Shown: piece by piece, positions 10,647 to 40,702 of the stretch
Layout: each line of letters opens with the position of its first letter
Numbering within the stretch: the first letter of the stretch is position 1
The notes under the pieces: model-generated
The model's input: only the letters and a program-made list of their open reading frames with translations
What the model was told of the DNA's origin: nothing
Databases searched by the model: none
DNA from: a virus
Virus record (IMG/VR): IMGVR_UViG_3300022562_000333
Location: 1 to 64,000 of that record
Strand: one strand, 5' to 3'
Length of the DNA: 64,000 nucleotides
Program-made: the position numbers and the translations under genes

Positions 10647-10690
10647 TTGAAGTGAGGTAGCACCTAATTGGTCCGTTAGCAACGAAGTAC

Positions 10691-27217: not shown

Positions 27218-29233
27218 CTACAGGTCGATCTTGTGACCCCCCAGCTCGACAGAGACCGGAGCAGCCTTCGTCGGCTCCGGGTTCAAGTCGATCTCAATCC
27301 CGGACTTCATGCCGAATTCCGCGACGATTGACTTGGTGTTTTGCATGAGGCTGGCGAGGTTGATCTCCGTCGATTGACCCGAGGAGAGGATCTCCTGCTG
27401 TTGAGCCTTCTTGTCGGCGTACGGCGGCTCGTTGACCAGATCCTTGTTGTACTTGGAGCAGTAGCCGACCTTCGTTTGAAGCACGCAGCTAGAGCACTTG
27501 GACCCCAACTTGACGTAGGGGACGAGACGCGAACGGTGGAGCCTTGCCCCTTCCTCGCAACCCTTCGCGTAGTCCCCGTAGACCATCGGATCTACGTAGT
27601 AGATCCCCTGGAGACCTTGCTCCGCCAAGATGGTCTTCAACTCCGGAGCCGCCGCCTTGATGTCTCGGGGATCGAACTGGCGCTTGAGGACCGCCCCAAG
27701 TTGGGTGCCGTAAAGGCCCTCGTTCAAGTATCGGGCGGCCGTCTTGACGATTTCCCGCTTCGTGAGGCCCGCCGTGACGTGCCCATGATCTGCACCACGG
27801 AAGGCTTGCTCGACGTATGATCGCATTGGCGTAGAGTCAGCCTTACCTACCTGAGAGGCGACCCTGTAGATGGCCTTCAGGGCTTCCTTGGGCGTCGGAC
27901 CCCAAGCGATCTTCTCCGCACCCGTCTCCAGCTTGCCCGCCAGACGGTGCTCCCAGATGACTTGCTTGACGGTCTCATCCGTCAGGGGGGTTTCGGTGTT
28001 CGCCGCGAGGGGGCGGCCGTAGATGAGGCAGCGGGACATCTTGTTGTAGATGCACCCGTTGCACTTACCCCCAGCCACGATCGCCTTGACGGTGGGGTTA
28101 TGCTTCGCGAAGAAGTCTGCTCCAACCCCGCAGTCGTCAAAGGAGTCCTGCGTAGCGTAGACGGTCCCGTAGAGGCCCGCTTGATCGATCAAGGGCCGCC
28201 AATGGGAGGCCGTGTTCTTGAGGTCTGAAACCGAGAAGGAGAGCTTCAGAGCATGAACCAGCTCGGGGACGCTACGCCCCTTGAGCATCTCTCGACGAAG
28301 AAGCGACGTGACCTCAAAGGCCGTCCGGTCCTCCCCGGTCTTGACCCCAGCCGTCTTTCCCTCGGGGGTCGGAGGCTGCCACGCCTGCTCAGAGGCCAGA
28401 AGGCGTTGCGCTTCGGTCTGGAAAACAGGGAGGTGAACCTTGCCCGGAGCCGACGCTTGGCGGAGTTGGCGAGCCGGATCGACCACGGGCTTCGGGGTCT
28501 CTACCGACCCCGCAACAGTCACATCCTTGGCGAGATACGCCGCCTGAATACGACCACGGGGATCTGTGGAGGACGCCTGAACTTGCTTCCCCTTGGCCGA
28601 CTGAGAACGCTCGACCGCGTCAGCCAACTCAGGCGTGTAGGGAACCTCCAGAACGATCTTCTTCTTGAAGACTCCACATGTGTCGGCGGAATTGTGGATG
28701 CACCCTTGGCAATCGCTCTTGGCGACCACGAAACGGGCGTCAGCGGCGTAACGCCTGACGAACGTGGTCAACGTCTTCGACGACTGTGCGCAGTTGGTGA
28801 AGTCGGCGGCCGACACGTAGTACCGACCAAGTAGCCCACGCTCCCGCAGAACCGAGGCAAGAGCGGTCTTGGCGTTCGTGATGAGGTCCGTATCGAACCT
28901 GGACGTGAGCGCCTGCTTCAACTGCCCCAGGTTGGTCGTCTGCATGAGCGTGTAGCGAGCCACCTTGATGACCTGCTCCACTGCCGCTTGCTTACCCTGG
29001 TGAGCCTCGCTCAAGGCAGACAGCGACGGAACCTTGTCCTTGTTCGGGACGAGATAAGCCCCTGCCGGCTGGTCCTTGTGATCCCACATGGCCTGGAGGT
29101 CCGGGGAGATGTCGAGGTTTTGCTTCGGGAGCTTGTCCAGGTCCCGATACTGCTGTTCATCGACATCGAGCCAATCGAGGTCGGCGACGGAGCCCTCTTT
29201 CAAGAAGTTGGTGAGATCGCCGAGATCAGCCAT
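27218..29233 (-). CDS. Protein with three Cys4 repeats (about 671 aa)
   Basis: ATG at 29233 with SD GAGG; three GLxGxxY..C..CxxC..C..Y/F units. Confidence 0.75.
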   Translation of the reverse strand: MADLGDLTNFLKEGSVADLDWLDVDEQQYRDLDKLPKQNLDISPDLQAMWDHKDQPAGAYLVPNKDKVPSLSALSEAHQGKQAAVEQVIKVARYTLMQTTNLGQLKQALTSRFDTDLITNAKTALASVLRERGLLGRYYVSAADFTNCAQSSKTLTTFVRRYAADARFVVAKSDCQGCIHNSADTCGVFKKKIVLEVPYTPELADAVERSQSAKGKQVQASSTDPRGRIQAAYLAKDVTVAGSVETPKPVVDPARQLRQASAPGKVHLPVFQTEAQRLLASEQAWQPPTPEGKTAGVKTGEDRTAFEVTSLLRREMLKGRSVPELVHALKLSFSVSDLKNTASHWRPLIDQAGLYGTVYATQDSFDDCGVGADFFAKHNPTVKAIVAGGKCNGCIYNKMSRCLIYGRPLAANTETPLTDETVKQVIWEHRLAGKLETGAEKIAWGPTPKEALKAIYRVASQVGKADSTPMRSYVEQAFRGADHGHVTAGLTKREIVKTAARYLNEGLYGTQLGAVLKRQFDPRDIKAAAPELKTILAEQGLQGIYYVDPMVYGDYAKGCEEGARLHRSRLVPYVKLGSKCSSCVLQTKVGYCSKYNKDLVNEPPYADKKAQQQEILSSGQSTEINLASLMQNTKSIVAEFGMKSGIEIDLNPEPTKAAPVSVELGGHKIDL

Positions 29234-30713
29234 TGGAACCTCTGTCATCGTCTTCGTGCCGGAAGACATCTTGAATGTCGTTGCGGTAGTTGTGCGTGGT
29301 CCAGTCGTACTTGACGTACGGAGGGTCTTGGTGTTCGAGACTCTGCCCAACGTCCATCAAATCTCGGTCGTAGTTGTAGAGGGGTGGCACTTGGTCGCCC
29401 GGCACCCTCGACGACCCGTCATCCGGCAACATACGCCAATCATGAACGTGCTCCCCTTGGTGGGTCACGTTGAATTGGTTGCCCTTGTTACCCTCGAAGT
29501 AGTCCGACCTAGCGACTGGATCCGGGCCGTCAAACGGGAGCTTGGATTCTGCTTGAGGCCCGCACCCACAACCCGCCCAAACGTTACGCTCGACGCCGTC
29601 CAGATACGGACCGGCCCCCTCTTCCGTATCTCGGGTGGGGGCGCCGGGATCGTTCGGGAGGTCGCTGGAGGGGCCGTAAACGCCTCGGCCGTCTGGCGAC
29701 TTGGTGCCGTAACCCTCGGTGCCTCGTCCTTTGGCTCCGTAACCGATGCCGAAGTCCCGCCCTTCCGTCTCCGTGGGGTCGCTGGTCGCGTCAGGGATCG
29801 CTGACTCCCCCCATGCTTCAAGACCAGTCTTGTCGAGCAAGTTGTTGGAGAAGTCCGATTCGTAGTCGTACTCGTCGTCTACCCCTTCGCTGAGACCCCA
29901 CGCATCTTCCGTGAGAGGCTCATCCCGGTTGTATGACCCGTACGGCCCCGTTTGCTCTCCTCGGTCGAGGTGGTCTACCCGAGGGCCTGGGAGGGTGGCT
30001 GGGGAAACAGAGCTGTTCGCCTGCTTCTGCATGGCGTTCTTCACATGCTGCTTGAAAGACTCCCCTTGAGGGATAGCTTCGTTGCCGGCATCCCCACCGC
30101 CAGGCAGCTCAGAGCTTTTGTCCTTCGTCTTGGTCTTCGACTTCGACTTGGGCTTGGGCTTGGTGTTCGGCGTACCCCCTGGGCCATCGTTCTTCTTCTC
30201 GATCTCTTGGACTTCCTTCTCCCCAAACGCCTCCGGGTCCTCAAGAACCTCCTCGGCCTCCTCCATGAACTCGGTCACGTCCTCGGCATCGTTCGCCCCA
30301 AGCTCAGCTAGGCTCGGTTGCCAGTGAGGGGCGTTGATCTCGTCGTGAACCGTATCCGTAATCGAAGAGAGCAGCTCACAAGCCTGCTGGAGCTTGCTGC
30401 GGATGTCCTTGACCTTGGTGACGTAACCTCGACCACCAAGCATTCCGTCCGGTGAGATTCGGGCAGACTTGAGCCGGGTGAATTCCTTGTAGGCAGCGAC
30501 CGCATGTCCGAGCGACACGCTGGACGAGAAGAGCATCCTCGCGAGCGGCTTCAGGGCCTTGGGGTCGAAGTCGTGGTTCTTGGGGATGTTCCGTTTCAGG
30601 CCATCCGATCCCCCGATAAAGGGCGGCGGCGGGGACGGGGAGTCGTCATCCTCGCTCTTGAAGAACCCGCCAGACTTGGCGATGATCAGCCGGACCTTTT
30701 GCTGGGTACTCAA
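29226..30713 (-). CDS. Acidic low-complexity putative inner-head protein (about 495 aa)
   Basis: TTG at 30713 with SD GAGGAGG; helical N-domain, then a D/G/P-rich tail with repeated SxLP motifs. Confidence 0.7.
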   Translation of the reverse strand: MSTQQKVRLIIAKSGGFFKSEDDDSPSPPPPFIGGSDGLKRNIPKNHDFDPKALKPLARMLFSSSVSLGHAVAAYKEFTRLKSARISPDGMLGGRGYVTKVKDIRSKLQQACELLSSITDTVHDEINAPHWQPSLAELGANDAEDVTEFMEEAEEVLEDPEAFGEKEVQEIEKKNDGPGGTPNTKPKPKSKSKTKTKDKSSELPGGGDAGNEAIPQGESFKQHVKNAMQKQANSSVSPATLPGPRVDHLDRGEQTGPYGSYNRDEPLTEDAWGLSEGVDDEYDYESDFSNNLLDKTGLEAWGESAIPDATSDPTETEGRDFGIGYGAKGRGTEGYGTKSPDGRGVYGPSSDLPNDPGAPTRDTEEGAGPYLDGVERNVWAGCGCGPQAESKLPFDGPDPVARSDYFEGNKGNQFNVTHQGEHVHDWRMLPDDGSSRVPGDQVPPLYNYDRDLMDVGQSLEHQDPPYVKYDWTTHNYRNDIQDVFRHEDDDRGSNG

Positions 30714-30723
30714 GGGATCCTCC

Positions 30724-30996
30724 TCAGTACCGGAGAGGCTTTCCGTTGTCGTCGAACTGGCGCTCAATGACCATCGAGCCGTCCGCCTCACGCTTGATGG
30801 CCCACAAGTCCTTCTCGGCCTTGTGGATGAGCGTGTCGTTGCTCAACCTCGTGAACGAGGCGAGGTCTTGGATCGATGCCACCTTCCGACGCCCCGTTGG
30901 GGTGACCATTTGAGGCTCACGAGCGAAGAAGGCGTCCAGGCCGTGGGAGGCTTGGACCTGGAACATGGAGCCGATGTCGAAGTCCTTGTTACTCAT
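30724..30996 (-). CDS. Hypothetical protein (90 aa)
   Basis: SD GAGGT, tight packing and an RKVAS site. Confidence 0.7.
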   Translation of the reverse strand: MSNKDFDIGSMFQVQASHGLDAFFAREPQMVTPTGRRKVASIQDLASFTRLSNDTLIHKAEKDLWAIKREADGSMVIERQFDDNGKPLRY

Positions 30997-31003
30997 CCTG
31001 ACC

Positions 31004-31906
31004 TCACGTTACGACAAGGACAATCTCAACGTCCTGGTAGCTGTTGGAGCTGTAACCAGAAACGCGGAGCTTCTCCGAATAGGTCCCTTGCAACAGGTTG
31101 TCCGGGGGTACGACCGTGACCGTGATATCGGTCGACTCGCTAGAGAGAAGCGTGCCCGAAGACGGAAGGAAGCTCGTGAGCCAGTCGGAGAGCCCCGTGA
31201 GCTTCTGAACCTGGAAGTCCAGAACCGATCCTACCAACCCAGTGTTTTGGACCGTGAAGGTTTGGGTCGGGATCGACGGGAAGGACCCGGACAACGGTTT
31301 GACAACACTGAAGTTGAGTACCGTTGGGTTCGTGTAGATGGTTGCCTTCGGCCGAACCGTGATGGTGACAGGAAACGTCTGCGGGTTGTTGGTCGCTGAG
31401 GGGTCTTGAATCGCGATGGTTTCGTTGTACGGGCTGCTGGTAGCAAGCAGATCCGTCGCATCCACCTCGATTTGAAACTGACCGGACTCGTTCAGGGCGA
31501 GGTTCCCAACGTTCGCTGGGGTTACCCGAACATACGCCGCCGATGTGGTGAGGGTGACCCCTAGAAGCGAGCCGTAGACTCCGTCGTTGGTGATGAGAAC
31601 CACCTCGGGCTCGGCAAAACCACGTCCTTCGTCGACCGTGAAGTTGAGCAACGTCGGAGGTCCGAGCAGGATGTTCGGAGCGAAGTTGGACTTCAACTCG
31701 TCGATCGACTCGGCCATCGCCGAGACAACCTCGCCGGGGATGGGGATGGAGTCCCTCAGTAACCCGTACGGTGACTTGATGTCCCGAACCGAGTAGAGGG
31801 GGTTCGATTGCGACACGTCCAACCGAGTCGTCCACTCCCACTTACCAGCGGCCGTGGCAAACTCGAACTTGTGGTCGTGTGCCCGAAGGTTCGAGACAAG
31901 CGGCAT
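31004..31906 (-). CDS. Protein with tandem Ig-like (BACON-like) domains, probably structural (300 aa)
   Basis: Two repeats of PTxLNF.V...ITN/VQN.G..GS.L...W/Y....P.....L...ES....I.V....L....Y; SD GAGG at the 31906 start. Confidence 0.72.
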   Translation of the reverse strand: MPLVSNLRAHDHKFEFATAAGKWEWTTRLDVSQSNPLYSVRDIKSPYGLLRDSIPIPGEVVSAMAESIDELKSNFAPNILLGPPTLLNFTVDEGRGFAEPEVVLITNDGVYGSLLGVTLTTSAAYVRVTPANVGNLALNESGQFQIEVDATDLLATSSPYNETIAIQDPSATNNPQTFPVTITVRPKATIYTNPTVLNFSVVKPLSGSFPSIPTQTFTVQNTGLVGSVLDFQVQKLTGLSDWLTSFLPSSGTLLSSESTDITVTVVPPDNLLQGTYSEKLRVSGYSSNSYQDVEIVLVVT

Positions 31907-31953
31907 GCGGTTCCTCTTGAACCGCACGCCATAAGAAGAAACGGGCTCTTAGC

Positions 31954-32589
31954 TTAGAAGCACCCGTCCCCACCCCTGTTCGACCACTGGGGCAATTTGA
32001 CCTCGCGCAAGATGTTGAATTTCTTGGACGCGATCGAAGAGAAGACCTTGCTGTACCGAGAGAACCGAGAATCCTCCCCAGCTCGTTTCTCCAGCGTGGT
32101 CACGGCGCCAAAGAAGCGGTGCCGAACTCTGCCCTGCGTAAGACCGAGCCGACTAGCGACTTCTGACTGACACGTGGTCTGCCACATGCCGACCAAGATG
32201 TTCACGTCGATGGGTTTGAACGGTACGTCGGGGAGGTCGCGGCGCATCTCCTCCTCGCTGACTTGGGGGATAGACAGGAGGAATCGAATTCGCTGGAGTC
32301 CTCGGTCGAGTCGGTAGCTGATAGCCGCCTGCGTCACCCCGAAGATTTCGGCGATGTCCGCCTGACGCTTCTTTTGGATGTAGTACAGGTCAATCAAGTC
32401 CGCTTCGCGTTCCGGAATCCGGTCGAGTAGCGGCTTGATCTCGTTCTCGAAGCTGAGCGTTGAGAGCAAGGGCTGGGCGTCGTCACCCTCTTCCTCCTCT
32501 TCCAACTCGTCGAATAAGGGCTCATCGGGGGCTGCGAATCGGTTGGCAAGTTCTGCCGGATCGACCGAAAAGACGTAGCCACCGCTCAT
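31954..32589 (-). CDS. Transcription factor with two tandem sigma70 region-4-like HTH domains (211 aa)
   Basis: LDRIPEREADLIDLYY..QADIAEIFGVTQAAISYRLDRGLQRIR and QSEVASRLGLTQGRVRHRF; no sigma2 region visible. Confidence 0.8.
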   Translation of the reverse strand: MSGGYVFSVDPAELANRFAAPDEPLFDELEEEEEGDDAQPLLSTLSFENEIKPLLDRIPEREADLIDLYYIQKKRQADIAEIFGVTQAAISYRLDRGLQRIRFLLSIPQVSEEEMRRDLPDVPFKPIDVNILVGMWQTTCQSEVASRLGLTQGRVRHRFFGAVTTLEKRAGEDSRFSRYSKVFSSIASKKFNILREVKLPQWSNRGGDGCF

Positions 32590-32606
32590 GATGCCCTCTC
32601 CTCCCG

Positions 32607-34628
32607 TCAGCTCTCGAAATTGAACTGCCCTTGTTGCTGCTTCACGAAACCAACTGAAGTTTGGAAGAACGGGTCCACGATCGGGTCAGCCTGGATGTTG
32701 AGACCCCCTATGGTCTCGGAGGCTGTCTTCGCATCGGGGGTTGGCGGGATCTCCTCGAACGGAAGGTCCGTGAGGAGCGTCATGAGTTTCAAATTGAGAC
32801 GAACTTGGTCCCCCGCTGAACGGATCTTGGCATACTGTTTCGGGGTGGTTCCCGACAGGTTCGATGCCAACATGTCTTCAACAGTGCCGTAGTTCTTCAA
32901 GAGCCCCGTGAGGATTTTGTCGGACACCATAGGGATGCCCGGTATCTCGTCCGAAGTGTCACCCAGCAACGCCCGAAGCTGGACCAAAGATTCAGGCGTG
33001 ACCCCATATTCTTCCACGACTTTATCCCGGTCGTAAAGGGTCTCTTGTCGATTTCCGACCTTGGGTGCTAGCACAATATCGGTAAGTGTCACCAGTTGTA
33101 GGAAGTCTTGGTCCGTGGAGACGATAACGTTGCGTTGTCCTTTGAGTTTTCCCCTGACCAGACACGCAATGATGTCGTCGGTCTCTTCGTCCTTGTTGAA
33201 CGCCTGAGTGACCCCCAGTGTCGGAAGGATGTTCCTGAGTCGGGTCATTTGGTTATCAGGTGTCGTTGCGCCGTTGGATGCCCGCTTTTGGCGACGCTTC
33301 AATTTGTAACCTGGGAACATTTCAATGCGGCGTTGGGGTGATCCATCCCAAACCACGTAGACCTTCGCGTTTGGGAACCGCTTCTTGTAGCTGGTAAGGC
33401 TTTTGAGGAACCCGAAGACCATCCCGGTTGGGTTGCCATCGGAGTCCGTGAGGGGGGTCTTCATCACACCCAGAGCGTTGGCGACTCGGTAGGCGAGGTT
33501 GTGCCCGTCGATGATGATGTTCTCGAACATGTCCGGTCTCCTCCACGTGAGCGCTTCGATGTTGTCCAGGTCCCTAGCGATGGAGTCAAGTCGCCGCACA
33601 ACGTCTTGAAGCCATTGGGTCTCGCGTTGCTTCGTCTTTACCCGCTCGTTGAACCCGTTTAGAATTTGCGTTTCAGACTGGCTCACCACGGGGTCCGTAG
33701 ACACGGAGTAGAAGAAGCCGGGGTTCTTTTGTATGATCGAGGTCATGTGCTTCACGCGCTCATGACGTGTCTTGATCCCAAGGAAGACCAGGCTCCGATC
33801 CTGGCGAAGCCACCCGTTTACGAGACTAAACTCCTCGTGTTTGCGGAGCAGGGGCGCTAGGTCAGCGTCAGGGGTTTGACGTACACGCTCAATGAGCCGC
33901 ATCTGCTCTAGGAGGGGGTCTCGGCGGTGCCACCACCGCATCGCCAGCTCAACGTTCGCGTACCTCTTGATGGCGTGTTCCAAGGGTTGAATGCTGAGCG
34001 GATCCCAGACCAAAAGGGGTCGCACGGCCCGAACCCAATCGCGGATCCTCTCGATTTTGGTGAGGAACGGAGAGAAGGTCGGGAGATCCGACTGATCCTT
34101 GGAAACGAACCGAAGGAAGCTCCTCGGGAGGGTGACGATGGCCTCTTTCGACCTGAGCTTGATGAATACTTGAACGCTGTCGTTCTCCGGGATCTCCTCG
34201 ATGATACGGCCGTTGATGCCCTTGTAGGCGCCGCTCATCACCTGGACTTCGTCCCCGACTTCGATCCCTTGCTCCGTCTCGACGTGGATCTGCTTTCGCA
34301 TCCGCTCGATATCGGAGTCTTGGACGCAGGCCATCTCCCGCACCGTCGTCTTCTTGTCGGAGCGGGCGATCGTCAAGACAGAGGAGATGTACTTCGTGCC
34401 TTCCAGACGGAGGAAGGCGTTGTCTGGTAGTGTTCTACGGATGAACACATAGTTGTCGATCAGCTTGTGGATGACTCGACTGTCCCCTTGAATCGAAATT
34501 GAAGCCGGGATGAAAATCTCGACCGCCTTGTCTCGAATCAGACGCACAAGGGCTGAGGAGAGGACTTCGGGGTCCTCATCCTCCCCTTGAGGGGACAACT
34601 CTAGGACCACCCACTCACGCTTCGCCAC
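32607..34628 (-). CDS. NusG-like (NGN+KOW) domain fused to a 5'-3' exonuclease/flap endonuclease (673 aa)
   Basis: N-terminus has WVVL..IFIP..LIDNYVFI..VGDEVQVMSGAYKGING. C-terminus has IIDGHNLAYR, VVWDG, YKLKR, ETDDIIA, STDQDFLQL and LLGDTSDEIPGI. Confidence 0.88.
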   Translation of the reverse strand: MAKREWVVLELSPQGEDEDPEVLSSALVRLIRDKAVEIFIPASISIQGDSRVIHKLIDNYVFIRRTLPDNAFLRLEGTKYISSVLTIARSDKKTTVREMACVQDSDIERMRKQIHVETEQGIEVGDEVQVMSGAYKGINGRIIEEIPENDSVQVFIKLRSKEAIVTLPRSFLRFVSKDQSDLPTFSPFLTKIERIRDWVRAVRPLLVWDPLSIQPLEHAIKRYANVELAMRWWHRRDPLLEQMRLIERVRQTPDADLAPLLRKHEEFSLVNGWLRQDRSLVFLGIKTRHERVKHMTSIIQKNPGFFYSVSTDPVVSQSETQILNGFNERVKTKQRETQWLQDVVRRLDSIARDLDNIEALTWRRPDMFENIIIDGHNLAYRVANALGVMKTPLTDSDGNPTGMVFGFLKSLTSYKKRFPNAKVYVVWDGSPQRRIEMFPGYKLKRRQKRASNGATTPDNQMTRLRNILPTLGVTQAFNKDEETDDIIACLVRGKLKGQRNVIVSTDQDFLQLVTLTDIVLAPKVGNRQETLYDRDKVVEEYGVTPESLVQLRALLGDTSDEIPGIPMVSDKILTGLLKNYGTVEDMLASNLSGTTPKQYAKIRSAGDQVRLNLKLMTLLTDLPFEEIPPTPDAKTASETIGGLNIQADPIVDPFFQTSVGFVKQQQGQFNFES

Positions 34629-36141
34629 GAACAGACGCCCCTTTTAGCAAAGACGAGCGAAGCTCTTTGAAGATCCGACGCCAAACGCTAGGTGTTACCG
34701 GGTTACGACCATCGCGAAGACGGTTGGCGTCAAATACAAGGGGTTGCTTGGTGTGCTTGTTTGCAGGCAGGTTGGCCGGCATAACCTGCGTATCGAACTC
34801 ACTCAAAGCACAGGGATCCTCCCCCATGTTCCCCAGCTTGGGCTGGGCCACATACTTAGGGGGCGGCGCAGACGGAACCGCCTGGACGGGCGGTAGGGCT
34901 ACCTGAACGGGGGCGGGAGGCGGGGCTGCCTGGACGGGGGGTGAGGCTGCCGGGGGGGCCGGAGACGGGGCTGCCTGGACGGGGGGTGGGGACTCAACCG
35001 GGGCTGCCTGGACGGGAGGTGGGGCTGCCTGGACGGGCGCTACCGCTACGGGCTGAAAGACCTGTTGAGGTTGCGTCTGCATCGCAGGGTCGAGAATCAC
35101 CCCAGCGGCGAGCTGCTTGGCGAGCGTCACGACATCACAGATCAGACCGATCTTCGTGACGTACCGTGAGTGCATGAAGTGCTTGGTGATCTTGATGAGC
35201 TGGTCCCCGTAGAGCTGGTACGCCTTTTGGCTCAGCTCCTTGTCAGCGAAGGTGAAGTCCGCCGTCATGCCGTTCGCCAAGCGGAACGAGGTCATGGCCG
35301 CTTCTGCGATACCCGAAGCAACCTCTTCAGGGGTGACCCGCTCACAAGCCTGGTCGATGAAGTCCAGGGCTTCTTTGGTGGCGCTCGGGATGCGAAGCAG
35401 GATCTCGTAGAAGAGGGAGATGGCGGAGAGGTTGAGGTGGTCGCGGACACTCTCCACCGTGACCGGCCCCATTTGAGCCACCATCTCCAGCTTGTTCAAG
35501 GTGTCGCGAACACCCCCGCCGCAGAAGTCGATGACCGTGAGGACCCCTTCGTCTTGGTGCTCCACGTTCTCTTGTGCGAGCACCATTTTCATCCGAGCGA
35601 GGATGTCGTCTCGGGTGACCTTACGGATCGCGTGCTCCTCGCACCGGGACCGGATCGCCCCACGAACCTTCTCCGGCTCCGTCGTACAAAACATCCCGAC
35701 GAGCTTTTTCTCTTCCAGGGGCTTGAGCAGGACGTCCTGTGCGTCCTTCGACATCCGGTGGCACTCGTCGATGACGTAAACCCTCTTCTTTGCCCCGAAG
35801 ACGGCAAAGGGGAGGTCATCCACGACCTTCCTGACGTACTCGATGGTCCCTCGACTAGCGGCGTCAAATTCGACGATAGCGCCCGCTGCATCGCTCAACG
35901 AAGCCTTGCAGTTGTCGCACTCGTTGCAAGGTTCAGGGTCACTTGGGTCGAGCTGTTGGCAGATCACAGCCCTGGCGAGGATTCTCGCAAGGGTGGTCTT
36001 ACCCTGTCCTGGTCCACCCCAAAACAGGTAGTTCGTGTCCAAGGCGGTGCCGTTCTTGAGCCTCGATTTGAGGATCTGAACGGCACCTTCTTGCCCGAGG
36101 ACGTCAGCGAACTTGAGCGGCCTGTACTTCGTATCCCACAC
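34615..36141 (-). CDS. dnaX: DNA polymerase III clamp loader gamma/tau subunit
   Basis: KYRPLKFADVLGQ, GGPGQGKTTLAR, C..PCNECDNC, IDECHRM, LLKPLEE and IRSRC, with a Pro-rich linker. Confidence 0.93.
   Translation of the reverse strand: MWDTKYRPLKFADVLGQEGAVQILKSRLKNGTALDTNYLFWGGPGQGKTTLARILARAVICQQLDPSDPEPCNECDNCKASLSDAAGAIVEFDAASRGTIEYVRKVVDDLPFAVFGAKKRVYVIDECHRMSKDAQDVLLKPLEEKKLVGMFCTTEPEKVRGAIRSRCEEHAIRKVTRDDILARMKMVLAQENVEHQDEGVLTVIDFCGGGVRDTLNKLEMVAQMGPVTVESVRDHLNLSAISLFYEILLRIPSATKEALDFIDQACERVTPEEVASGIAEAAMTSFRLANGMTADFTFADKELSQKAYQLYGDQLIKITKHFMHSRYVTKIGLICDVVTLAKQLAAGVILDPAMQTQPQQVFQPVAVAPVQAAPPPVQAAPVESPPPVQAAPSPAPPAASPPVQAAPPPAPVQVALPPVQAVPSAPPPKYVAQPKLGNMGEDPCALSEFDTQVMPANLPANKHTKQPLVFDANRLRDGRNPVTPSVWRRIFKELRSSLLKGASVRGEA
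34876..35040 (-). repeat. Coding repeats (PVQAA/PVQVA) in the DnaX linker
   Basis: Recurrent gcctggacggg units. Confidence 0.8.
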
Positions 36142-36154
36142 GATGAAACCTCAC

Positions 36155-36646
36155 TCAGTGAGCGGCGGCTCCAGTCGTTTGGGTCTGTTGAGCATCTACC
36201 CCAGCCGTCATGTAGCTGAGGTCCAGGGTGTTCGCGACCGAGACGAAGTTGACGAGGTCGTCGTTCCAGGCTCCGTGCCTACGGAGGATGGTCGAGAACT
36301 CCTGTACGTCGGGCTCCCGGAGCTTCCACTTCATGTCCCCCGTCTCCTCGTCCTCTTCCCCGAAGCAGCGCTCCAAGAGATGATCGACGAGAGCCGTCCG
36401 CTTGGGTCCGTCGAGGGGGTTCCAGGCATCCAAGGCGACTTCGATGAGGTAGTCTGATTCGATGAGGAAGATCATGAGGTCGCTGCACTTCTTGACCGTG
36501 CCGTAGACGACCTTGCCACCCTTCTTGCCAGCCTTCTCCTTGAAGACGTAGCGGAACCGAGCTGTCGCCAATTCCGGGTGGTGCGCAGGGATGAGCTGGC
36601 TTGCGATAGACTCCACTCCCTCGGCGTTTTCGTACGTCTGACCCAT
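36155..36646 (-). CDS. Phage metallopeptidase-like domain protein with a degenerate site (163 aa)
   Basis: HPELATARFRYVF..DYLIEV..W..L..RTALVDHLLERC..REPDVQEFSTILRRHGAW; HLLER replaces the usual HELxH. Confidence 0.65.
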   Translation of the reverse strand: MGQTYENAEGVESIASQLIPAHHPELATARFRYVFKEKAGKKGGKVVYGTVKKCSDLMIFLIESDYLIEVALDAWNPLDGPKRTALVDHLLERCFGEEDEETGDMKWKLREPDVQEFSTILRRHGAWNDDLVNFVSVANTLDLSYMTAGVDAQQTQTTGAAAH

Positions 36647-36648
36647 GT

Positions 36649-37347
36649 TCACTCCATTTGCGCTAGAAGATACGGCTTGAATCGGTCGTCGCCCCACGCT
36701 TCCCAGAGGTCACCGGGGTCTTTGACTGGTTTGCCTCGCAGGGTGAGCCCTACGGGGTACTCGGGAATACGAACCTCAAATAAGTCCCCGCATTCTTTGC
36801 GGAATGTGGCGCACGCTTTACGGCCGATCGCATCATTATCATAAAAGAGGTAGGTGCGCTTTACAAGACGCTTGAAGGTGCGGAGGAGTACATCACTGAC
36901 CTTGGCGGTCAAGGTGGCAATCGTGAAAGGTACAACGCGCTGCGTTGGAAAGAAGTCGAAGACCCCTTCCACTGGGAGAGCTGACTCGGTCTCCCAAATT
37001 GAAGGCATGGCTTGACCTAGCCCGAAAAAGACTGGCTCTGCGTGCGTGAGGAGGTAGTCCGAGTAGATCCCACCTTCCCGCTCCACACCCCTGAATTGAA
37101 ACCCCTGAATCTCACCAAGAGGGTTGGTGAGCGGGAAGACGTAGCAGTCTTGGAGCTTGCGACCCTTCCAGCACCACTCCAAAAACTCCTCGGGGTACTC
37201 GGCCTCCGGGAGCTTCCTGTCTAGGTAACCTACCCGAAGGAGATCGATCTGCTCGTCTGAGGCGCCACGGGACCAGAGGGCTTCACGGACGCGTTCGTCC
37301 ACCCCCTTTTGCGCGTACTCTACGAGCGTCTCAACCCAGGCTGTCAT
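36649..37347 (-). CDS. DnaG-like primase core (TOPRIM), no zinc-binding domain (232 aa)
   Basis: VFPL..G.I.GFQFR, VEGVFD, LFYDNDAIG and KDPGD. Confidence 0.85.
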   Translation of the reverse strand: MTAWVETLVEYAQKGVDERVREALWSRGASDEQIDLLRVGYLDRKLPEAEYPEEFLEWCWKGRKLQDCYVFPLTNPLGEIQGFQFRGVEREGGIYSDYLLTHAEPVFFGLGQAMPSIWETESALPVEGVFDFFPTQRVVPFTIATLTAKVSDVLLRTFKRLVKRTYLFYDNDAIGRKACATFRKECGDLFEVRIPEYPVGLTLRGKPVKDPGDLWEAWGDDRFKPYLLAQME

Positions 37348-37900
37348 TCGGTCGCACCACCATCAACGTCCGGGGGACGTTGTAGAACTGGAGACCGAGA
37401 TAGTCCCCGACCCTGGTATAGACACCGAGGGCTGGAGGACTGGCAGCAACTAGAGCACATCCTTGAGGAAGTGGGCCTACAACCACCTGTAGACCTTGGA
37501 TCGAAACGGACTCCCCTTCCGAAAGCTCGTGGTCCGATGGGACCACGATGGTCTTCGGGGGGGTGTTCGACTTGTTCATGGCGGCTAGGGCTTCTGGGAT
37601 CCCCCCAAATACATTGGCCCACCCGGAAGTGGTGGCGAGCTGTAGAACGGTGCTGTAGAGCCGCTCCAACACGTCGTTCTCATGGGACGGAGGGCACATA
37701 AAGAAGGCGTACCGAGCGTTCCCCGCCGCCCCACGCTTGCTAGGCAAAAAGAGGCCACGCATGTTCGTGACCAAGAGAGTTTCGACGTTTTCCGGGACTT
37801 GCCGCTCCTCCATAGCCGGAACAGAGAAACCCCCGGCGCTCGCTGCGCGTTGGCGGAGCCGCTCCGTCACGAGCAAGTGGGAAAGAGCGGAAAAGTTCAA
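37331..37900 (-). CDS. Hypothetical protein whose C-terminal half resembles the MCP C-terminal part (189 aa)
   Basis: Manual alignment with the MCP C-terminus (see findings). Confidence 0.6.
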   Translation of the reverse strand: MNFSALSHLLVTERLRQRAASAGGFSVPAMEERQVPENVETLLVTNMRGLFLPSKRGAAGNARYAFFMCPPSHENDVLERLYSTVLQLATTSGWANVFGGIPEALAAMNKSNTPPKTIVVPSDHELSEGESVSIQGLQVVVGPLPQGCALVAASPPALGVYTRVGDYLGLQFYNVPRTLMVVRPNDSLG

Positions 37901-38517
37901 CTCCGGAGCCTCTTAGGCTCCGCTCCGAGAAGGCGGAGGAGCCAAGCCTTCCACCACGGCACAACGGTTTCCACGGGAGCTTCGGGGATCGTAGCCTCAG
38001 CGGCTTCCACGGGAACAGGGGGAGCCTCGGCTTCCCCTACCAGCTCGTCGATCTTCTCCTGAGTCTCAACGATCTGAGGTTGTTCCTTCGCTTCAGTTTC
38101 TTCCAAGAGCCACATGAGGGCGAAGACCTCGGGTAGATGCTCCCGAGCCCACGCCTCGTCCCGGAGCTGCTCGCGAAACTCTTTGAGCAGGTCCGCCTTG
38201 AGCTTCGCAGGCTTGAAGTCCGGACACCTTTTCGCGTCAATCGGGTCCTCGCAAATGGTACCACCCCAGGTCTCGGGGTCGTCCGAGCCGAGCATGCAAA
38301 GACCGATGGTCTGGATGACGGGGAGCCCTCGTCCGTTCGCGATACGGTTGTAGCCTTCGTTGGGCTCCCCATCCACTTGCTTGCGTTGGTCGAGCGGATG
38401 ACGGTGGTTGTGAACGCAGCGATGCGGAAGCCTCTCCGAAGCCTCCGCAATCCGCTTGTTCACCTCTTCCGCTAGGAGCTGGTTGAGGCGAACCCGAACT
38501 TCGGGCTCGCCTCTCAC
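37897..38517 (-). CDS. Hypothetical Cys/His-containing protein (206 aa)
   Basis: Overlapping start/stop coupling; RCVHNH..C..C..C, with amphipathic C-terminus PWWKAWLLRLLG. Confidence 0.65.
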   Translation of the reverse strand: MRGEPEVRVRLNQLLAEEVNKRIAEASERLPHRCVHNHRHPLDQRKQVDGEPNEGYNRIANGRGLPVIQTIGLCMLGSDDPETWGGTICEDPIDAKRCPDFKPAKLKADLLKEFREQLRDEAWAREHLPEVFALMWLLEETEAKEQPQIVETQEKIDELVGEAEAPPVPVEAAEATIPEAPVETVVPWWKAWLLRLLGAEPKRLRS

Positions 38518-39206
38518 GATACGCTCCGCAGCTTTTTCACCACGAACTCCTGCCTTACACCTTGGGTCTTCGAGTCCCCGTGGTACGAGAGAGTCGCGTG
38601 GTCAATGAAAGCGGGCTTGTGGGTTACCATGAGCAGAGACAGATCACTCGTGGCCGCTAGTTTTTGGAGAAACTGTCCCGTCGCCTCGATGTAGTCATCG
38701 GAGACAGCCGCGAGAGTCTCATCAAGCAACAACGTGCGCTGCCGTTTCAGCCGGAGGAGGGTGAGGATCCGAAGAATGAGGCTGGCGATGCTTGACGGAC
38801 CACCCCCGAACGAGTCGAGAGGGGAGCCTTTGATTCCACCGTTGTCCGGGTCGCCTTGGCAGATGTAGAACTCGACCGCGATCTTGTTGTACTTCTGCGA
38901 CACTTCGGCCCGGAAGCTGAGGTCTTGGTCGAAGAAGATCGTACGAAGGCCCTCGGACACGATGGTCTCGATGGTGCGCACCTGACCCATGACCATCTGG
39001 TCCATGAGGACCCGGTATAGTTCCGCGACTTTGGTGAGGACTTCTTGGCGACGGGCTAGCTCCGCGATCTCCACCTCTTTAGAGACCAACTCCCGAGAGA
39101 GTTGATCTCGCATCGTCTTGAGGCGAATCGCGGAGGTCTGTAGATGCCTGACCCGTTGCGCCCAGCCGTCTACTCCTTCGACGGCATGAAGCGGGTCACT
39201 CGGCAT
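38514..39206 (-). CDS. SbcC/Rad50-like ABC ATPase, C-terminal half
   Basis: Short coiled coil, signature-like SFGGG, Walker B LLLDE and H-loop MVTH; no Walker A. Confidence 0.85.
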   Translation of the reverse strand: MPSDPLHAVEGVDGWAQRVRHLQTSAIRLKTMRDQLSRELVSKEVEIAELARRQEVLTKVAELYRVLMDQMVMGQVRTIETIVSEGLRTIFFDQDLSFRAEVSQKYNKIAVEFYICQGDPDNGGIKGSPLDSFGGGPSSIASLILRILTLLRLKRQRTLLLDETLAAVSDDYIEATGQFLQKLAATSDLSLLMVTHKPAFIDHATLSYHGDSKTQGVRQEFVVKKLRSVS

Positions 39207-40411
39207 GAGAACGTACCTTCTGGTTCGACGGTCACGTTGCCGCTTTCGTCCAGGTGAAAGTCATCGATCGTGCGGAACATACCCACTTCCTTGCGGTCCG
39301 CCGACGCTGGGACGATCAGGATGTGGAACTCGACCTCGTTGTTCTTGACCTTCTCCACGAGGTCGATCATGTGGTTCAGGTTGATGTTGAAGCTCCAGTC
39401 ACGGGCCTCGATCATCTCCGTTTCACCCTCTTTCTTGGGGCGAACCCTGACCGGGATGCTGTCCGTCTTGGACGTCCCTTCCGAAACGCCGAACTGAAGC
39501 TGACGCCTCTCGTGGTTGAAGATGATCTTGATCTTGTCGCGGTCCTTGTCCAACTCACTACGCGTGTACTTGAGTGAGTTGAGGAATTGGACCTTGTCGA
39601 TGAGAAAGATGTTCTTGTCGTTCTTGAGAGCGTAGTATTTGAACTGGGGATGGCTCTTGGCGTGCTTGGGCCAACCGAGCACCTGACCCGAAACGTTCTC
39701 CAAGAACGTGAAGTGAGAGCCGATTCGGAACGTCACCTTGCCAGCGCTCTTGCTGAGAAACTGCTGGAGGGGGCCGAGGTGTTGTCCGTGGACCTCGACA
39801 CCTTTGCCGGCGAAGGCGTCGCACCAGAAGTAGTAGGCGCGAACGGAGTCGGCTGCGAAGAGGTGACCGTCACCCTTGGCGTGTTCAGGCTTCGAGCCGT
39901 CGAACACCTGAACCGCCTTGTACTGCTCTTCCGCCTTGGTGTCCGAAGCCTCTGCCATAAACGGCTTCGCCATGTCGATGGCCTGCCTGAGAATGGCCGT
40001 GGGGTAGTCGTACGTCGTCGTGGTGGCCTTCAGATCGTCATCACACGTCGAGAGGAGCCGTGGACTGAATGAGCTTCGCTCCGTACGAGCACCGTTGCCC
40101 GCTTCGTAGCGAACGATGAACCGCTCATCCTCCTTAGCTTCCGCCTCGAAGGTGAGGTTTTGCCCATCGAGGTAGTTGAGAGCTTCGATGTACTCGGCCG
40201 GGTAGACGAACTGGCCGTCCCCGTCCGACTCCTCCAGCTTGAGGTTGGCTCGGGCGACACACTGATCGTTCCGAGAGTAGACCTGGCAATCGAGCCCGGT
40301 CACCACGAAGAGGTACCCGGCTCCCCCTTGAGGGGTCACGGGTCGCGGCTTGACGATCTTGACGAGGTCGAGCGCTGCGATCAAATTCGACGCGTTGAGT
40401 TTGATTTTCAT
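39170..40411 (-). CDS. dnaN: Sliding clamp, DNA Pol III beta-like (413 aa)
   Basis: N-terminus MKIKLNASNLIAALDLV, C-terminus FMP, size consistent with three domains, and dnaX/holA/holB nearby. Confidence 0.72.
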   Translation of the reverse strand: MKIKLNASNLIAALDLVKIVKPRPVTPQGGAGYLFVVTGLDCQVYSRNDQCVARANLKLEESDGDGQFVYPAEYIEALNYLDGQNLTFEAEAKEDERFIVRYEAGNGARTERSSFSPRLLSTCDDDLKATTTTYDYPTAILRQAIDMAKPFMAEASDTKAEEQYKAVQVFDGSKPEHAKGDGHLFAADSVRAYYFWCDAFAGKGVEVHGQHLGPLQQFLSKSAGKVTFRIGSHFTFLENVSGQVLGWPKHAKSHPQFKYYALKNDKNIFLIDKVQFLNSLKYTRSELDKDRDKIKIIFNHERRQLQFGVSEGTSKTDSIPVRVRPKKEGETEMIEARDWSFNINLNHMIDLVEKVKNNEVEFHILIVPASADRKEVGMFRTIDDFHLDESGNVTVEPEGTFSCRVTRFMPSKE

Positions 40412-40418
40412 CTGTTCC

Positions 40419-40694
40419 TCACTTCTTGTCGTAAGCGCTCAGGTTGGTCTCGGCTTCCACAAGGCCCTTCTCGAACTCCTCGATGAGAGACTCAAGCTCT
40501 TGCTGCACCTTGTTGCGGTCCTCGACGAGCGTTTTGGGGTTATACCCCGCCGCCTGGATCTCCTTGACGAGAGCGGCTAGCTCATCCCGCTTGGATCGAA
40601 GCTCACCACCCAACTCCGCCTTGCGTTTTATGAGGTGGCCGTGCCGCGTTTGAAGGTCTTGGATCTTCTCGTTTAGTTCTTCTGGGGAGCGCAT
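40419..40694 (-). CDS. Small coiled-coil protein (91 aa)
   Basis: SD GAGGA; heptad pattern throughout. Confidence 0.7.
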   Translation of the reverse strand: MRSPEELNEKIQDLQTRHGHLIKRKAELGGELRSKRDELAALVKEIQAAGYNPKTLVEDRNKVQQELESLIEEFEKGLVEAETNLSAYDKK

Positions 40695-40702
40695 GGGGGT
40701 CC

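What the first reader, a model, noticed from the sequence alone, without database searches (positions are those of the whole stretch)
31954..36141. Candidate replication-coupled late-transcription switch: dnaX, NusG-FEN with clamp-binding-like tail, sigma4-sigma4
Seen: these three closely packed genes sit exactly between the replication block and the first late-motif gene (31906). The fusion ends in QGQFNF-ES (32616-32633), and the 211-aa protein has two sigma-region-4 HTHs with no sigma2. Known: beta-clamp ligands use Q-x-x-L-(x)-F-type peptides, and T4 couples late transcription to replication through its sliding clamp (gp45-gp33-gp55). Inference: this may be an analogous but non-homologous system, in which the phage beta-clamp recruits NusG-FEN and hence RNAP, while the sigma4 tandem binds the beta-flap or promoter DNA.
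Basis: inference. Interest (0 to 1): 0.75.

Follow-up and report, generated by a model that had tools for sequence, protein, structure and literature searches.

The report
Huge-phage NusG-nuclease and sigma-4 module
A giant phage with no RNA polymerase of its own keeps, right after its clamp-loader gene, a NusG-type polymerase-riding factor (here fused to the phage's only flap nuclease) and a protein built of two sigma-region-4 DNA-binding domains; the trio recurs in very distant giant phages and probably reprograms the host polymerase, but a T4-like clamp-driven switch is not shown.

Summary
The three genes and their domains are real: DnaX-like clamp loader (34615-36141), NusG(NGN+KOW)-spacer-FEN fusion (32607-34628) and a 211-aa protein with a sigma-region-4 domain plus a second sigma4/LuxR-type HTH and no region 2 (31954-32589), lying between a bacterial-type replisome block and the head/packaging block. 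The order dnaX > NusG-like > sigma4-tandem holds in 45 of 45 close loci, in 9 of 9 distant loci and in LR745208.1; in the distant lineages the NusG-like protein stands alone without FEN, so the conserved core is dnaX + NusG paralog + sigma4 tandem, and the FEN is a clade-specific addition (the clade's only FEN). No phage RNAP was found in four complete relatives. The QGQFNF tail sits in a disordered end, but only 5 of 120 homologs have such a hexamer; a more widely conserved 'FF' helix belongs to the FEN fold. The complex prediction gave no verdict. A conserved 12-nt site precedes the first head-block gene but is single-copy, not a regulon motif. Best reading: a host-RNAP reprogramming pair co-expressed with replication genes; clamp coupling stays a minority hypothesis. 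This scan noted the same pair and fusion before on other DNA; four literature searches found no description.

The parts
34615..36141 (-). dnaX-like clamp-loader ATPase (508 aa): AAA+ core, Pro/Ala/Gln-rich linker, conserved C-terminal ~80 aa
   Evidence: PF13177 6e-24, phrog_5846 9e-58. Upstream neighbour of the NusG-like gene in 43 of 45 close loci (the other 2 are cut by contig ends), in 9 of 9 distant loci and in LR745208.1.
32607..34628 (-). NusG-FEN fusion gene (673 aa)
   Evidence: 117 of the 120 listed homologs cover at least 92% of it.
34275..34616 (-). NGN domain (residues 5-118)
   Evidence: PF02357 23.2 bits; TIGR00922 NusG positions 1-164 of 172, E 1.7e-10, far below its equivalog cut-off; UpxY, LoaP and RfaH models also hit; Foldseek NusG chains.
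34098..34259 (-). KOW domain (residues 124-177)
   Evidence: PF00467 25.1 bits, cut-off 22.3; strands in the model.
33531..34097 (-). Helical spacer (residues 178-366), low to medium model confidence, no family match
   Evidence: Helices 187-362, pLDDT mostly 42-84; no Pfam hit.
32655..33530 (-). Flap endonuclease / 5'-3' exonuclease domain (residues 367-658), acidic active-site columns conserved; includes the 'IVDPFF' helix 648-655
   Evidence: FenA 6c33 Z 29.1, model 367-658 to chain 2-318 of 317. D374, E481, E482, D484, D506, D508, D557, D560 invariant in 67 sequences.
32610..32654 (-).
   Evidence: pLDDT under 50 at 663-673. GF.K in 69 of 120 homologs, Q..[LF].F in the last 12 residues in 5 of 120.
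31954..32589 (-). Sigma4-tandem protein (211 aa): N-terminal conserved peptide (residues 5-18), acidic linker, sigma region 4 (43-109), second HTH (118-188), conserved C-terminal segment
   Evidence: Family of 642 representatives at E <= 1e-3. The six nearest Atlas clusters are 96-100% viral.
31931..31942 (-). Conserved 12-nt site GTTTCTTCTTAT, 24 nt before ATG 31906
   Evidence: Found de novo upstream of the orthologous gene; a recognisable copy in about 29 of 32 distinct loci. It stays with that gene when 1.5-2.1 kb is inserted after the sigma4 gene. Single-copy in relatives.
31004..31906 (-). First gene of the head/packaging block (Ig-like domain protein)
   Evidence: PF22544 Ig-like 2.8e-7. 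Orthologs align from residue 4-12 of the GTG-started ORF, so the start is probably ATG 31906.
39170..40411 (-). Beta-type sliding clamp candidate (413 aa)
   Evidence: Profile of 19 orthologs against PDB: beta clamps 8dt6_A 5.7e-5, 1vpk_A 1.6e-4 (N-terminal ~90 residues only); phrog_947 0.0024.

Best explanation
This is the tail of the phage's replication operon. It carries a three-gene cassette, ancient among huge phages, in which no RNA polymerase gene was found: the DnaX clamp loader, a specialised NusG paralog and a sigma-region-4 tandem protein. The last two are made together with the replication proteins and act together on the host RNA polymerase. The tandem protein would supply sigma-4-type contacts (beta-flap and/or upstream DNA). 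The NusG paralog would bind the elongating enzyme through its NGN domain and carry it through the long co-directional head/packaging block, which begins 47 nt downstream behind a conserved single-copy 12-nt site (a promoter element or an ops-like loading site). In this clade the NusG paralog has additionally captured, through a ~190-residue helical spacer, the clade's only flap endonuclease, which looks catalytically intact. The enzyme that removes RNA primers, flaps or R-loop RNA is thereby tethered to RNA polymerase. Shown: domains, folds, gene order and its depth of conservation, no RNAP beta-family gene found in relatives, uniqueness of the FEN. Inferred: RNAP binding, division of labour, role of the 12-nt site, purpose of the tether.
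For: Domains and folds. Gene order dnaX > NusG-like > sigma4 tandem: 45 of 45 close loci have NusG-FEN directly upstream of the sigma4 tandem gene, with dnaX in 43; 9 of 9 distant loci (5 distinct) and LR745208.1 have it with a stand-alone 177-207-aa NusG-like protein and overlapping or abutting reading frames, while other neighbours differ. Domain fusions among the 150 best sigma4-tandem representatives: 1 NusG(NGN+KOW)>tandem and 2 tandem>KOW, the latter in the reverse of the genomic order. PF00562 (RNAP beta) gave 0 of 5 records, including four complete relatives of 407-529 kb, with the control ringing in 14 of 14 genomes. The fusion holds the only PF02739 hit in complete relative G001. FEN acidic columns are invariant in 67 sequences. 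The best family matches are to specialised antiterminator paralogs as well as NusG (UpxY 2.3e-9, LoaP 6.3e-7, RfaH 4.7e-6). The 12-nt site stays with the downstream gene and is single-copy per genome. No sigma-70-type promoters or terminators above chance in 29000-41000.
Against: Nothing here shows that either protein binds RNAP. NusG similarity is weak by sequence (41 bits against an equivalog cut-off of 135.7). The constant neighbour is dnaX, not late genes: in distant locus L059 the trio is followed by MazG, RecA and an SbcC-like ATPase, which fits a replication-linked job as well. The 12-nt site is not shown to be a promoter, and a PWM scan of this genome gave 10 gene-strand hits against 6.6 +/- 2.5 in shuffles. 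Some fused forms join plain neighbours in genomic order (sigma4 tandem>Ig-like protein in 2 of 150, FEN>sigma4 tandem in 1, and the NusG>tandem form P0221), so part of the fusion evidence may be gene-call read-through.
Confidence: 0.5

Rival explanations
1. One reading: a T4- or Mu-like replication-coupled late switch. The phage beta-type clamp, loaded by DnaX, binds the C-terminal tail of NusG-FEN (and perhaps the N-terminal peptide of the sigma4 tandem) and so brings host RNAP to late promoters.
For: Linkage of the pair to dnaX in every lineage examined. The tail is disordered and lies just after the nuclease core. QGQFNF and the relatives' QEQLNF/QEQLAF fit a loose Q-x-x-[LF]-x-F hexamer. 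Clamp-activated transcription is established for T4 (PMC7892883, passages read) and for Mu MuC with the host beta clamp through terminal motifs close to QL[SD]LF (PMC12867686, abstract and sections 8 and 11 read). The sigma4 tandem has a conserved terminal peptide on an acidic linker, the layout of such motifs.
Against: The hexamer is present in 5 of 120 homologs only. Stand-alone NusG-like proteins of the distant lineages have no FEN and no such tail. The N-terminal peptide of the tandem protein does not fit QL[SD]LF or Qx[D/E][L/M]F. A clamp contact is the ordinary expectation for a flap nuclease and needs no transcription role. Q..[LIVMF].[FL] in the last 30 residues occurs in 5 of the roughly 89 minus-strand ORFs of this record scanned, including this one, so it is not specific.
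Confidence: 0.15
2. The coupling runs the other way: a transcription-primed replication and R-loop processing module. The sigma4 tandem directs host RNAP to an origin-proximal promoter, the NusG paralog keeps the nuclease on that polymerase, the FEN trims or removes the RNA of the R-loop, and DnaX loads the clamp on the RNA 3' end.
For: dnaX, not late genes, is the constant neighbour. The FEN is catalytically intact and the only one in the clade. The primase is a small Toprim-only protein of 232 aa. R-loop-primed origin initiation in T4 is described in PMC12867686, section 11.
Against: Lineages with the stand-alone NusG-like protein have no detectable FEN of this family (0 of 4 such records, one of them complete), so the nuclease cannot be the core of the cassette. 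No origin was identified. The GC skew profile shows no clear switch in the window.
Confidence: 0.2
3. The two small proteins are not RNAP factors at all. They would be DNA-binding or adaptor accessories of the clamp loader or replisome that merely reuse HTH and KOW folds.
For: Strict linkage to dnaX. Sigma4/LuxR-type HTHs are generic DNA binders, with KorA and LuxR-type hits also listed.
Against: The first HTH is specifically sigma region 4 by sequence (SigF region 4 3e-5 in PDB; TIGR02937 7.8e-14 over its cut-off). The partner matches NusG end to end, and NusG-family proteins are only known as RNAP factors (recalled; the review PMC7819879 was seen as abstract and passages only).
Confidence: 0.1

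Closest known systems
Specialised NusG paralogs (RfaH, UpxY, LoaP)
   Same: NGN+KOW architecture; matches to the NusG, UpxY, LoaP and RfaH models. A dedicated paralog encoded beside a long one-directional gene block, with very few candidate target sites per genome.
   Different: All scores are far below those families' cut-offs. Here it is fused to a flap nuclease, always paired with a sigma4 tandem gene and linked to dnaX. No recruitment site is shown.
T4 late transcription: gp45 clamp, gp33 co-activator, gp55 sigma
   Same: A phage without its own RNAP that encodes its own clamp and loader; small RNAP-directed proteins encoded with replication genes; a candidate terminal peptide on a linker.
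   Different: The clamp is beta-type. No region-2 protein lies in the cassette. The proposed clamp motif is not conserved. Homology to gp33 or gp55 was not tested directly; none appeared in the Pfam or PHROG hits.
Phage Mu MuC / Mor with the host beta clamp (Ho and Harshey 2026, PMC12867686)
   Same: An HTH transcription factor proposed to use a beta-type clamp through short terminal motifs.
   Different: MuC carries near-consensus QL[SD]LF motifs; the proteins here do not. MuC works with sigma-70 on a host clamp, whereas this phage has its own clamp.
Bacterial stand-alone flap endonucleases and the Pol I 5' nuclease (M. smegmatis FenA, E. coli ExoIX, Taq, T5 FEN, T4 RNase H)
   Same: Fold (Z 29.1 to 19.5), Pfam domains and conserved acidic residues.
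   Different: Carries ~366 N-terminal residues of NusG plus spacer. No such fusion was found in print.
Bacillus phage SPO1 gp33/gp34 late regulators
   Same: A two-gene late-transcription pair embedded in the replication cluster next to a FEN-type exonuclease (gp32.85), ligase and primase.
   Different: No detectable homology of gp34 to the sigma4 tandem (hhalign probability 3.6%). gp33 was not compared.

Membership tests
NusG/Spt5 family | NGN domain | tested here: met
   PF02357 23.2 bits (cut-off 22.2); TIGR00922 positions 1-164 of 172, E 1.7e-10; Foldseek NusG chains 9a56_B 4.6e-9 and 6gov_G 3.1e-8.
NusG/Spt5 family | C-terminal KOW domain | tested here: met
   PF00467 25.1 bits, cut-off 22.3.
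NusG/Spt5 family | Equivalog-level score for housekeeping NusG, RfaH, LoaP or UpxY | tested here: not met
   41, 26.7, 29.7 and 37.5 bits against cut-offs of 135.7, 144.5, 125 and 100. It is a divergent paralog, not any named one.
NusG/Spt5 family | Binds RNAP clamp helices in elongation complexes | not testable with these tools
FEN / 5'-3' exonuclease (Pol I 5' nuclease) family | N-terminal resolvase-like and H3TH domains | tested here: met
   PF02739 98.7 bits, PF01367 60.2 bits; FenA Z 29.1.
FEN / 5'-3' exonuclease (Pol I 5' nuclease) family | Conserved metal-binding carboxylates | tested here: met
   D374, E481, E482, D484, D506, D508, D557 and D560 are invariant in 67 sequences. Their mapping to the catalytic residues is inferred from position.
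Sigma-70 family sigma factor | Region 4 | tested here: met
   PF04545 53.3 bits; SigF region 4 3e-5; Z 8-9.
Sigma-70 family sigma factor | Region 2 (core binding, -10 recognition) | tested here: not met
   No PF04542 hit in the protein or in the 83-kb record. The model shows only two HTH domains. It is therefore not filed as a sigma factor.
T4-type clamp-activated late transcription | Phage-encoded sliding clamp and clamp loader | tested here: met
   Clamp 39170-40411; DnaX, delta and delta'. They are of bacterial beta/Pol III type.
T4-type clamp-activated late transcription | Region-2-like promoter recognition protein (gp55 role) | tested here: inconclusive
   None in this record. A 338-416-aa protein conserved in 4 of 4 complete relatives has sub-cut-off PF04542 similarity in 2 of them; its PDB profile search was uninformative.
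T4-type clamp-activated late transcription | RNAP-bound factor carrying a clamp-binding motif | tested here: inconclusive
   A loose hexamer in the tail of 5 of 120 homologs; no canonical motif in the sigma4 tandem. Binding is untested.
Beta-clamp-binding motif QL[SD]LF (consensus as quoted in PMC12867686) | Match to the pentamer consensus | tested here: not met
   No Q[LIVM].[LIVM][FLM] in NusG-FEN or in the sigma4 tandem. QGQFNF fits only the looser Q-x-x-[LF]-x-F.
Beta-clamp-binding motif QL[SD]LF (consensus as quoted in PMC12867686) | Conserved among orthologs | tested here: not met
   5 of 120.

The most novel reading that the evidence does not exclude
The NusG paralog and the sigma4 tandem together are a split, sigma-like device for the host polymerase. 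The NGN domain would take the place of sigma region 2 on the beta' clamp helices and the tandem protein the place of region 4 on the beta flap, as gp55 and gp33 do in T4. The device would be tied to the clamp loader and clamp, so that in huge phages replication licenses virion-gene transcription, with the fused flap nuclease working at the same DNA ends where clamps are loaded.
Probability: 0.12. Interest if true: 0.85.

Novelty: new variant of a known kind. Interest (0 to 1): 0.62.

Why it matters
Huge phages of 0.3-0.5 Mb in which no RNA polymerase gene was found must steer the host enzyme through hundreds of genes, and how they do so is largely unknown. A virus-specific family of sigma-4-only proteins (642 cluster representatives), always paired with a NusG paralog and linked to the clamp loader, is a concrete and testable candidate for that control. 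A NusG-flap-nuclease fusion would be a direct physical link between transcription and lagging-strand or R-loop processing. With Mu now joining T4 as a phage that uses a clamp for late transcription, a third, unrelated solution would show that the principle is general.

Tried and rejected
1. Complex prediction of two clamp copies with residues 620-673 of the fusion, both given as alignments: verdict 'no answer', score 0.00, controls not run. This counts neither for nor against binding.

2. I first took the family-wide hydrophobic-x-x-FF element (94 of 120 homologs) for a PIP-like clamp peptide (PIP consensus recalled, from no call). I rejected this. The model gives these helices pLDDT of about 78-97, and they align with the C-terminal helices of FenA, Taq and T4 RNase H (model 367-658 to FenA 2-318 of 317), so they are part of the nuclease fold.

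3. A general 'late promoter' reading of the 12-nt site is rejected as unsupported. It occurs 2-5 times per relative genome at up to 1 mismatch, against 0-16 for the reversed control. The PWM scan of this genome gave 10 hits against 6.6 +/- 2.5. A 5-mer enrichment in intergenic DNA gave nothing sharp. In AT-rich distant loci the PWM is uninformative.

4. The sigma4 tandem as a homolog of SPO1 gp34: hhalign probability 3.6%. The Bacillus phage SBSphiJ4 hit is a 429-aa protein that shares the region 4 plus the start of the second HTH (96.6%); not followed further.

5. The sigma4 tandem as a small terminase subunit: not adjacent to the large subunit (about 6 kb and five genes away), and PHROG hits are sigma and regulator families.

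6. T7-type RNAP search (PF00940): 0 of 5 records, but the control rang nowhere, so it is uninformative.

7. RNA evidence: no RNA holder listed.

8. FEN in the distant lineages: protein query 0 of 5 (nothing rang); family query 0 of 4 such records, with the positive G001 ringing.

9. Sigma-70-type promoter and terminator scan of 29000-41000: at chance level.

10. Supplementary files of papers were not opened. The Mor/MuC motif alignment (SI Fig. S3F of PMC12867686) and the gene tables of the huge-phage papers could bear on the motif and novelty claims.

Literature searches that found nothing: 'NusG'+'huge phages'; 'NusG'+'flap endonuclease'+'phage'+'fusion'; 'NusG-like'+'phage genome'+'exonuclease'; 'NusG'+'megaphage'; 'NusG'+'jumbo phage'. 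NusG, KOW and Spt5 each occur 0 times in PMC7824862.

Full report
What the window is. The window is the first 64 kb of an 83,250-base IMG/VR virus record rated 17% complete, which implies a genome of roughly 0.45-0.5 Mb. Close relatives are 350-529 kb, several with terminal repeats and rated 100% complete. Nearly all genes lie on the - strand.

Check of the observation. The three ORFs are as described.
- The 508-aa protein is a DnaX-type clamp-loader ATPase (PF13177 6e-24; phrog_5846 9e-58).
- The 673-aa protein has NusG NGN (6-110), KOW (124-155) and both 5'-3' exonuclease domains (371-625).
- Its AF2 model (67-sequence alignment, pLDDT 84.2) shows NGN 5-118, KOW 124-177, a long helical spacer 187-362 of low to medium confidence, a nuclease domain, and a disordered end 663-673.
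- The nuclease aligns with M. smegmatis FenA at Z 29.1 (rmsd 2.7 A, 287 residues, model 367-658 to chain 2-318 of 317) and with ExoIX, T5 FEN, Taq and T4 RNase H.
- The N-terminal part matches NusG chains 9a56_B (4.6e-9) and 6gov_G (3.1e-8). It also matches the NCBIfam models for NusG (positions 1-164 of 172, 1.7e-10), UpxY, LoaP and RfaH, all far below their cut-offs.
- The protein ends QGQFNFES, and QGQFNF occupies 32616-32633.
- The 211-aa protein has Sigma70_r4 at 54-102 (2e-14) and no region 2. A 19-sequence profile hits SigF and FliA region 4 in the PDB (3e-5, 0.0014).
- In its AF2 model (pLDDT 78.3), residues 43-109 match sigma region 4 (SigR, BldN, SigH, SigF; Z 8.6-8.9, rmsd 1.2-2.2 A over 57-65 residues). 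Residues 118-188 match LuxR/GerE/NarL-type HTHs and RpoS region 4 (Z 6-7).
- PF04545 also hits the second HTH weakly in this genome (2e-4) and in 4 of 4 relatives.

Upstream lie a primase, a beta-type clamp (profile against PDB beta clamps 5.7e-5), PD-(D/E)XK nuclease, RecA, RecD2, NAD ligase, RNR, delta and delta'. Downstream lie the terminase large subunit, portal and head protease. The observation therefore stands.

How widespread the parts are. The fusion is a family. There are 218 proteins at E <= 0.001 among the 8000 candidates scored. Of the 120 listed, 117 cover at least 92% of the query at 37-74% identity, on contigs up to 512 kb. The sigma4 tandem is a larger family: 642 cluster representatives at E <= 1e-3 and 320 at <= 1e-10, mostly about 200 aa and aligned across both HTHs. 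The six nearest Atlas clusters are 96-100% viral. The family keeps an N-terminal peptide (F-x-x-x-D-P-x-E-x-x-x-R-F in consensus) on a variable acidic linker, then both HTHs and a C-terminal segment.

Gene order.
- Close loci: in 45 of 45 loci found with the tandem protein (57-86% identity; about 32 distinct), the NusG-FEN gene lies directly upstream. The gap is -4 to 214 nt in 44 loci, and one locus has a 1.6-kb insertion. dnaX precedes it in 43 loci; the other two are cut by contig ends. The same four genes follow. About 14 kb is collinear here, so this alone says little.
- Distant loci: a relative only 36% identical to the window's protein brought in 9 loci (5 distinct; GC 38-48%). In all of them the order is dnaX, then a stand-alone NusG-like protein of 177-186 aa, then the tandem protein, with overlapping reading frames. 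The other neighbours differ: MazG, RecA and an SbcC-like ATPase follow in L059, and an amidase and another HTH protein precede in L061.
- LR745208.1 (485 kb) has dnaX (interrupted by an intein-like insert), a 207-aa NusG-like protein and the tandem protein (42% identity).

The conserved core is thus dnaX + NusG paralog + sigma4 tandem, and it is not always at a late border.

Where the nuclease comes from. The FEN is a clade-specific addition. PF02739 rings once in complete relative G001, and that hit is the fusion. It rings nowhere in LR745208.1 or in three records of the stand-alone type, one of them complete at 312 kb. The acidic columns of the nuclease are invariant in 67 sequences, so it is an enzyme and not merely an adaptor.

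Fusions as a hint of joint action. I scanned the 150 best tandem representatives with my own HMMs.
- One protein joins NusG (NGN+KOW) to the tandem.
- Two join the tandem to a KOW-like segment, in the reverse of the genomic order.
- One joins FEN to the tandem.
- Two join the tandem to the downstream Ig-like protein.
The forms that join plain neighbours in genomic order warn that some may be read-through gene calls. The reverse-order forms cannot arise that way.

The tail. Among the 120 homologs, Q..[LF].F in the last 12 residues occurs in 5 (the window and its four nearest relatives). GF.K occurs in 69, and a hydrophobic-x-x-FF element in 94. The last element lies in helices that align with the C-terminal helices of FenA, Taq and T4 RNase H, so it is structural. 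What remains free is residues 659-673.
- It is not conserved, and it fits only a loose pattern that also occurs near the C-terminus in 5 of roughly 89 minus-strand ORFs of this record.
- It does not fit QL[SD]LF, the consensus quoted by Ho and Harshey.
- The one complex prediction gave no verdict and is reported only under Tried and rejected.

Other transcription parts. No RNAP beta-family gene was found in this record or in four complete relatives, with the control ringing in 14 of 14 genomes. The T7-type search was uninformative. Region 2 (PF04542) gave only sub-cut-off hits, in 2 of 4 complete relatives. These lie in a 338-416-aa protein that is conserved in 4 of 4, with a Cys-rich insert and a C-terminal HTH. 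A PDB profile search did not settle its nature. It is a candidate phage sigma elsewhere in the genome, which weakens the need for the cassette to supply promoter recognition.

The site downstream. A motif sampler run on the stretches upstream of the orthologs of the 31004-31906 gene found GTTTyCTTTTAT-like 12-mers, with a recognisable copy in about 29 of 32 distinct loci. The window's copy is at 31942-31931 (18.1 bits), 24 nt before ATG 31906. Where 1.5-2.1 kb is inserted after the tandem gene, the site stays with the downstream gene. It is close to single-copy: 2-5 matches per relative genome at up to 1 mismatch, no more than the reversed control. The exact copies in G004, G012 and G014 are the ones at this position. 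In this genome the matrix finds 10 gene-strand hits against 6.6 +/- 2.5 in shuffles; 6 are intergenic, and the second-best (18.4 bits) lies at 67596, outside the virion block. It is thus a conserved site at the head of the virion block, either a promoter element or an ops-like loading site. It is not a demonstrated late-regulon motif.

Reading. The best-supported account is a host-RNAP reprogramming pair: a specialised NusG paralog plus a sigma-4-type partner, made with the replication proteins. In this clade the phage's only flap nuclease is tethered to it.
- The T4/Mu-like clamp model remains possible. The link to dnaX is striking, and clamp-activated transcription now has two precedents (PMC7892883, passages; PMC12867686, abstract and sections 8 and 11). 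Its specific prop, the tail, fails the conservation test.
- A reverse coupling (transcription-primed replication or R-loop processing) explains the dnaX link and the nuclease. It cannot be the core function, because lineages without the nuclease keep the cassette.
- SPO1 offers an arrangement-level analogy: its FEN-type gp32.85, ligase, gp33, gp34 and primase are neighbours, but without homology.

Novelty. Five term searches for NusG with huge, mega or jumbo phages or with a flap-nuclease fusion found no paper. A comparative study of jumbo phages mentions minimal single-HTH sigma factors and gp33 orthologs in T4-like jumbo phages, but not NusG, KOW or Spt5 (passages and term counts). The NusG review PMC7819879 has no 'fused', 'fusion' or 'nuclease' (term counts). 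Supplements were closed. This scan has noted the NusG-sigma4 pair and the NusG-FEN fusion several times on other genomes. My results agree with those notes and add three points: the depth of the dnaX link, the structural nature of the FF helix, and the rarity of the tail hexamer.

Noticed in passing
L059:4244-5440, L060:4193-5521, L061:4220-5539, L063:4242-5426, L066:3992-5302, L002:7451-9367 (C-termini): The DnaX proteins of the distant lineages carry, 10-35 residues from the C-terminus, a conserved S-L-x-[LMK]-F (P-L-E-L-F in LR745208.1) followed by an amphipathic stretch. This is closer to the QL[SD]LF clamp motif than anything in the NusG-FEN tail. The window's DnaX lacks it in that form.
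   Followed up: no
L002:7481-9367; also L041 and L042 (dnaX hits split by about 1.1 kb): dnaX of LR745208.1 is 628 aa with an insert of about 200 residues right after the Walker B region that looks like an intein. Two close relatives also have dnaX split by about 1.1 kb.
   Followed up: no
L071:1501-2748, L072:1492-2556, L073:793-1806, L074:1270-2448: A 338-416-aa protein conserved in 4 of 4 complete relatives has sub-threshold sigma-region-2 similarity at the N-terminus, a Cys-rich insert in two members and a C-terminal HTH. It is a candidate divergent phage sigma and is absent from the 83-kb record.
   Followed up: partly
G000:C1:74510-74605 (+), beyond the window: A second strong Sigma70_r4 match (45.6 bits) lies in a 129-aa open frame on the opposite strand, in the tRNA-rich part of the record.
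   Followed up: no
window 61882, and G000 positions 65883, 67596, 73741 (- strand): There are further intergenic copies of the T-rich 12-nt site (10.4-18.4 bits), 13-54 nt upstream of small genes outside the virion block.
   Followed up: partly
L014, L015, L020, L025, L030, L043 (between the sigma4 tandem gene and the next gene): Insertions of 1.5-2.1 kb sit at this one intergenic spot in several relatives, which suggests a hot spot for mobile or accessory genes. L030 also has 1.6 kb inserted between NusG-FEN and the tandem gene.
   Followed up: no
window 9705-10682 (-): A LAGLIDADG/HNH-type homing endonuclease gene lies inside the head module (phrog_11023, 4e-11).
   Followed up: no
L002:6527-7030: A 167-aa ORF two genes upstream of dnaX in LR745208.1 weakly matches (E 6e-4) an HMM of the helical spacer of the NusG-FEN fusion. 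This may be a hint at where the spacer came from, or it may be chance.
   Followed up: no
P0146, P0189, P0148: Database proteins join the sigma4 tandem to the downstream Ig-like protein (two cases) or the FEN to the tandem protein (one case). These are real fusions, programmed read-through or gene-call errors.
   Followed up: no
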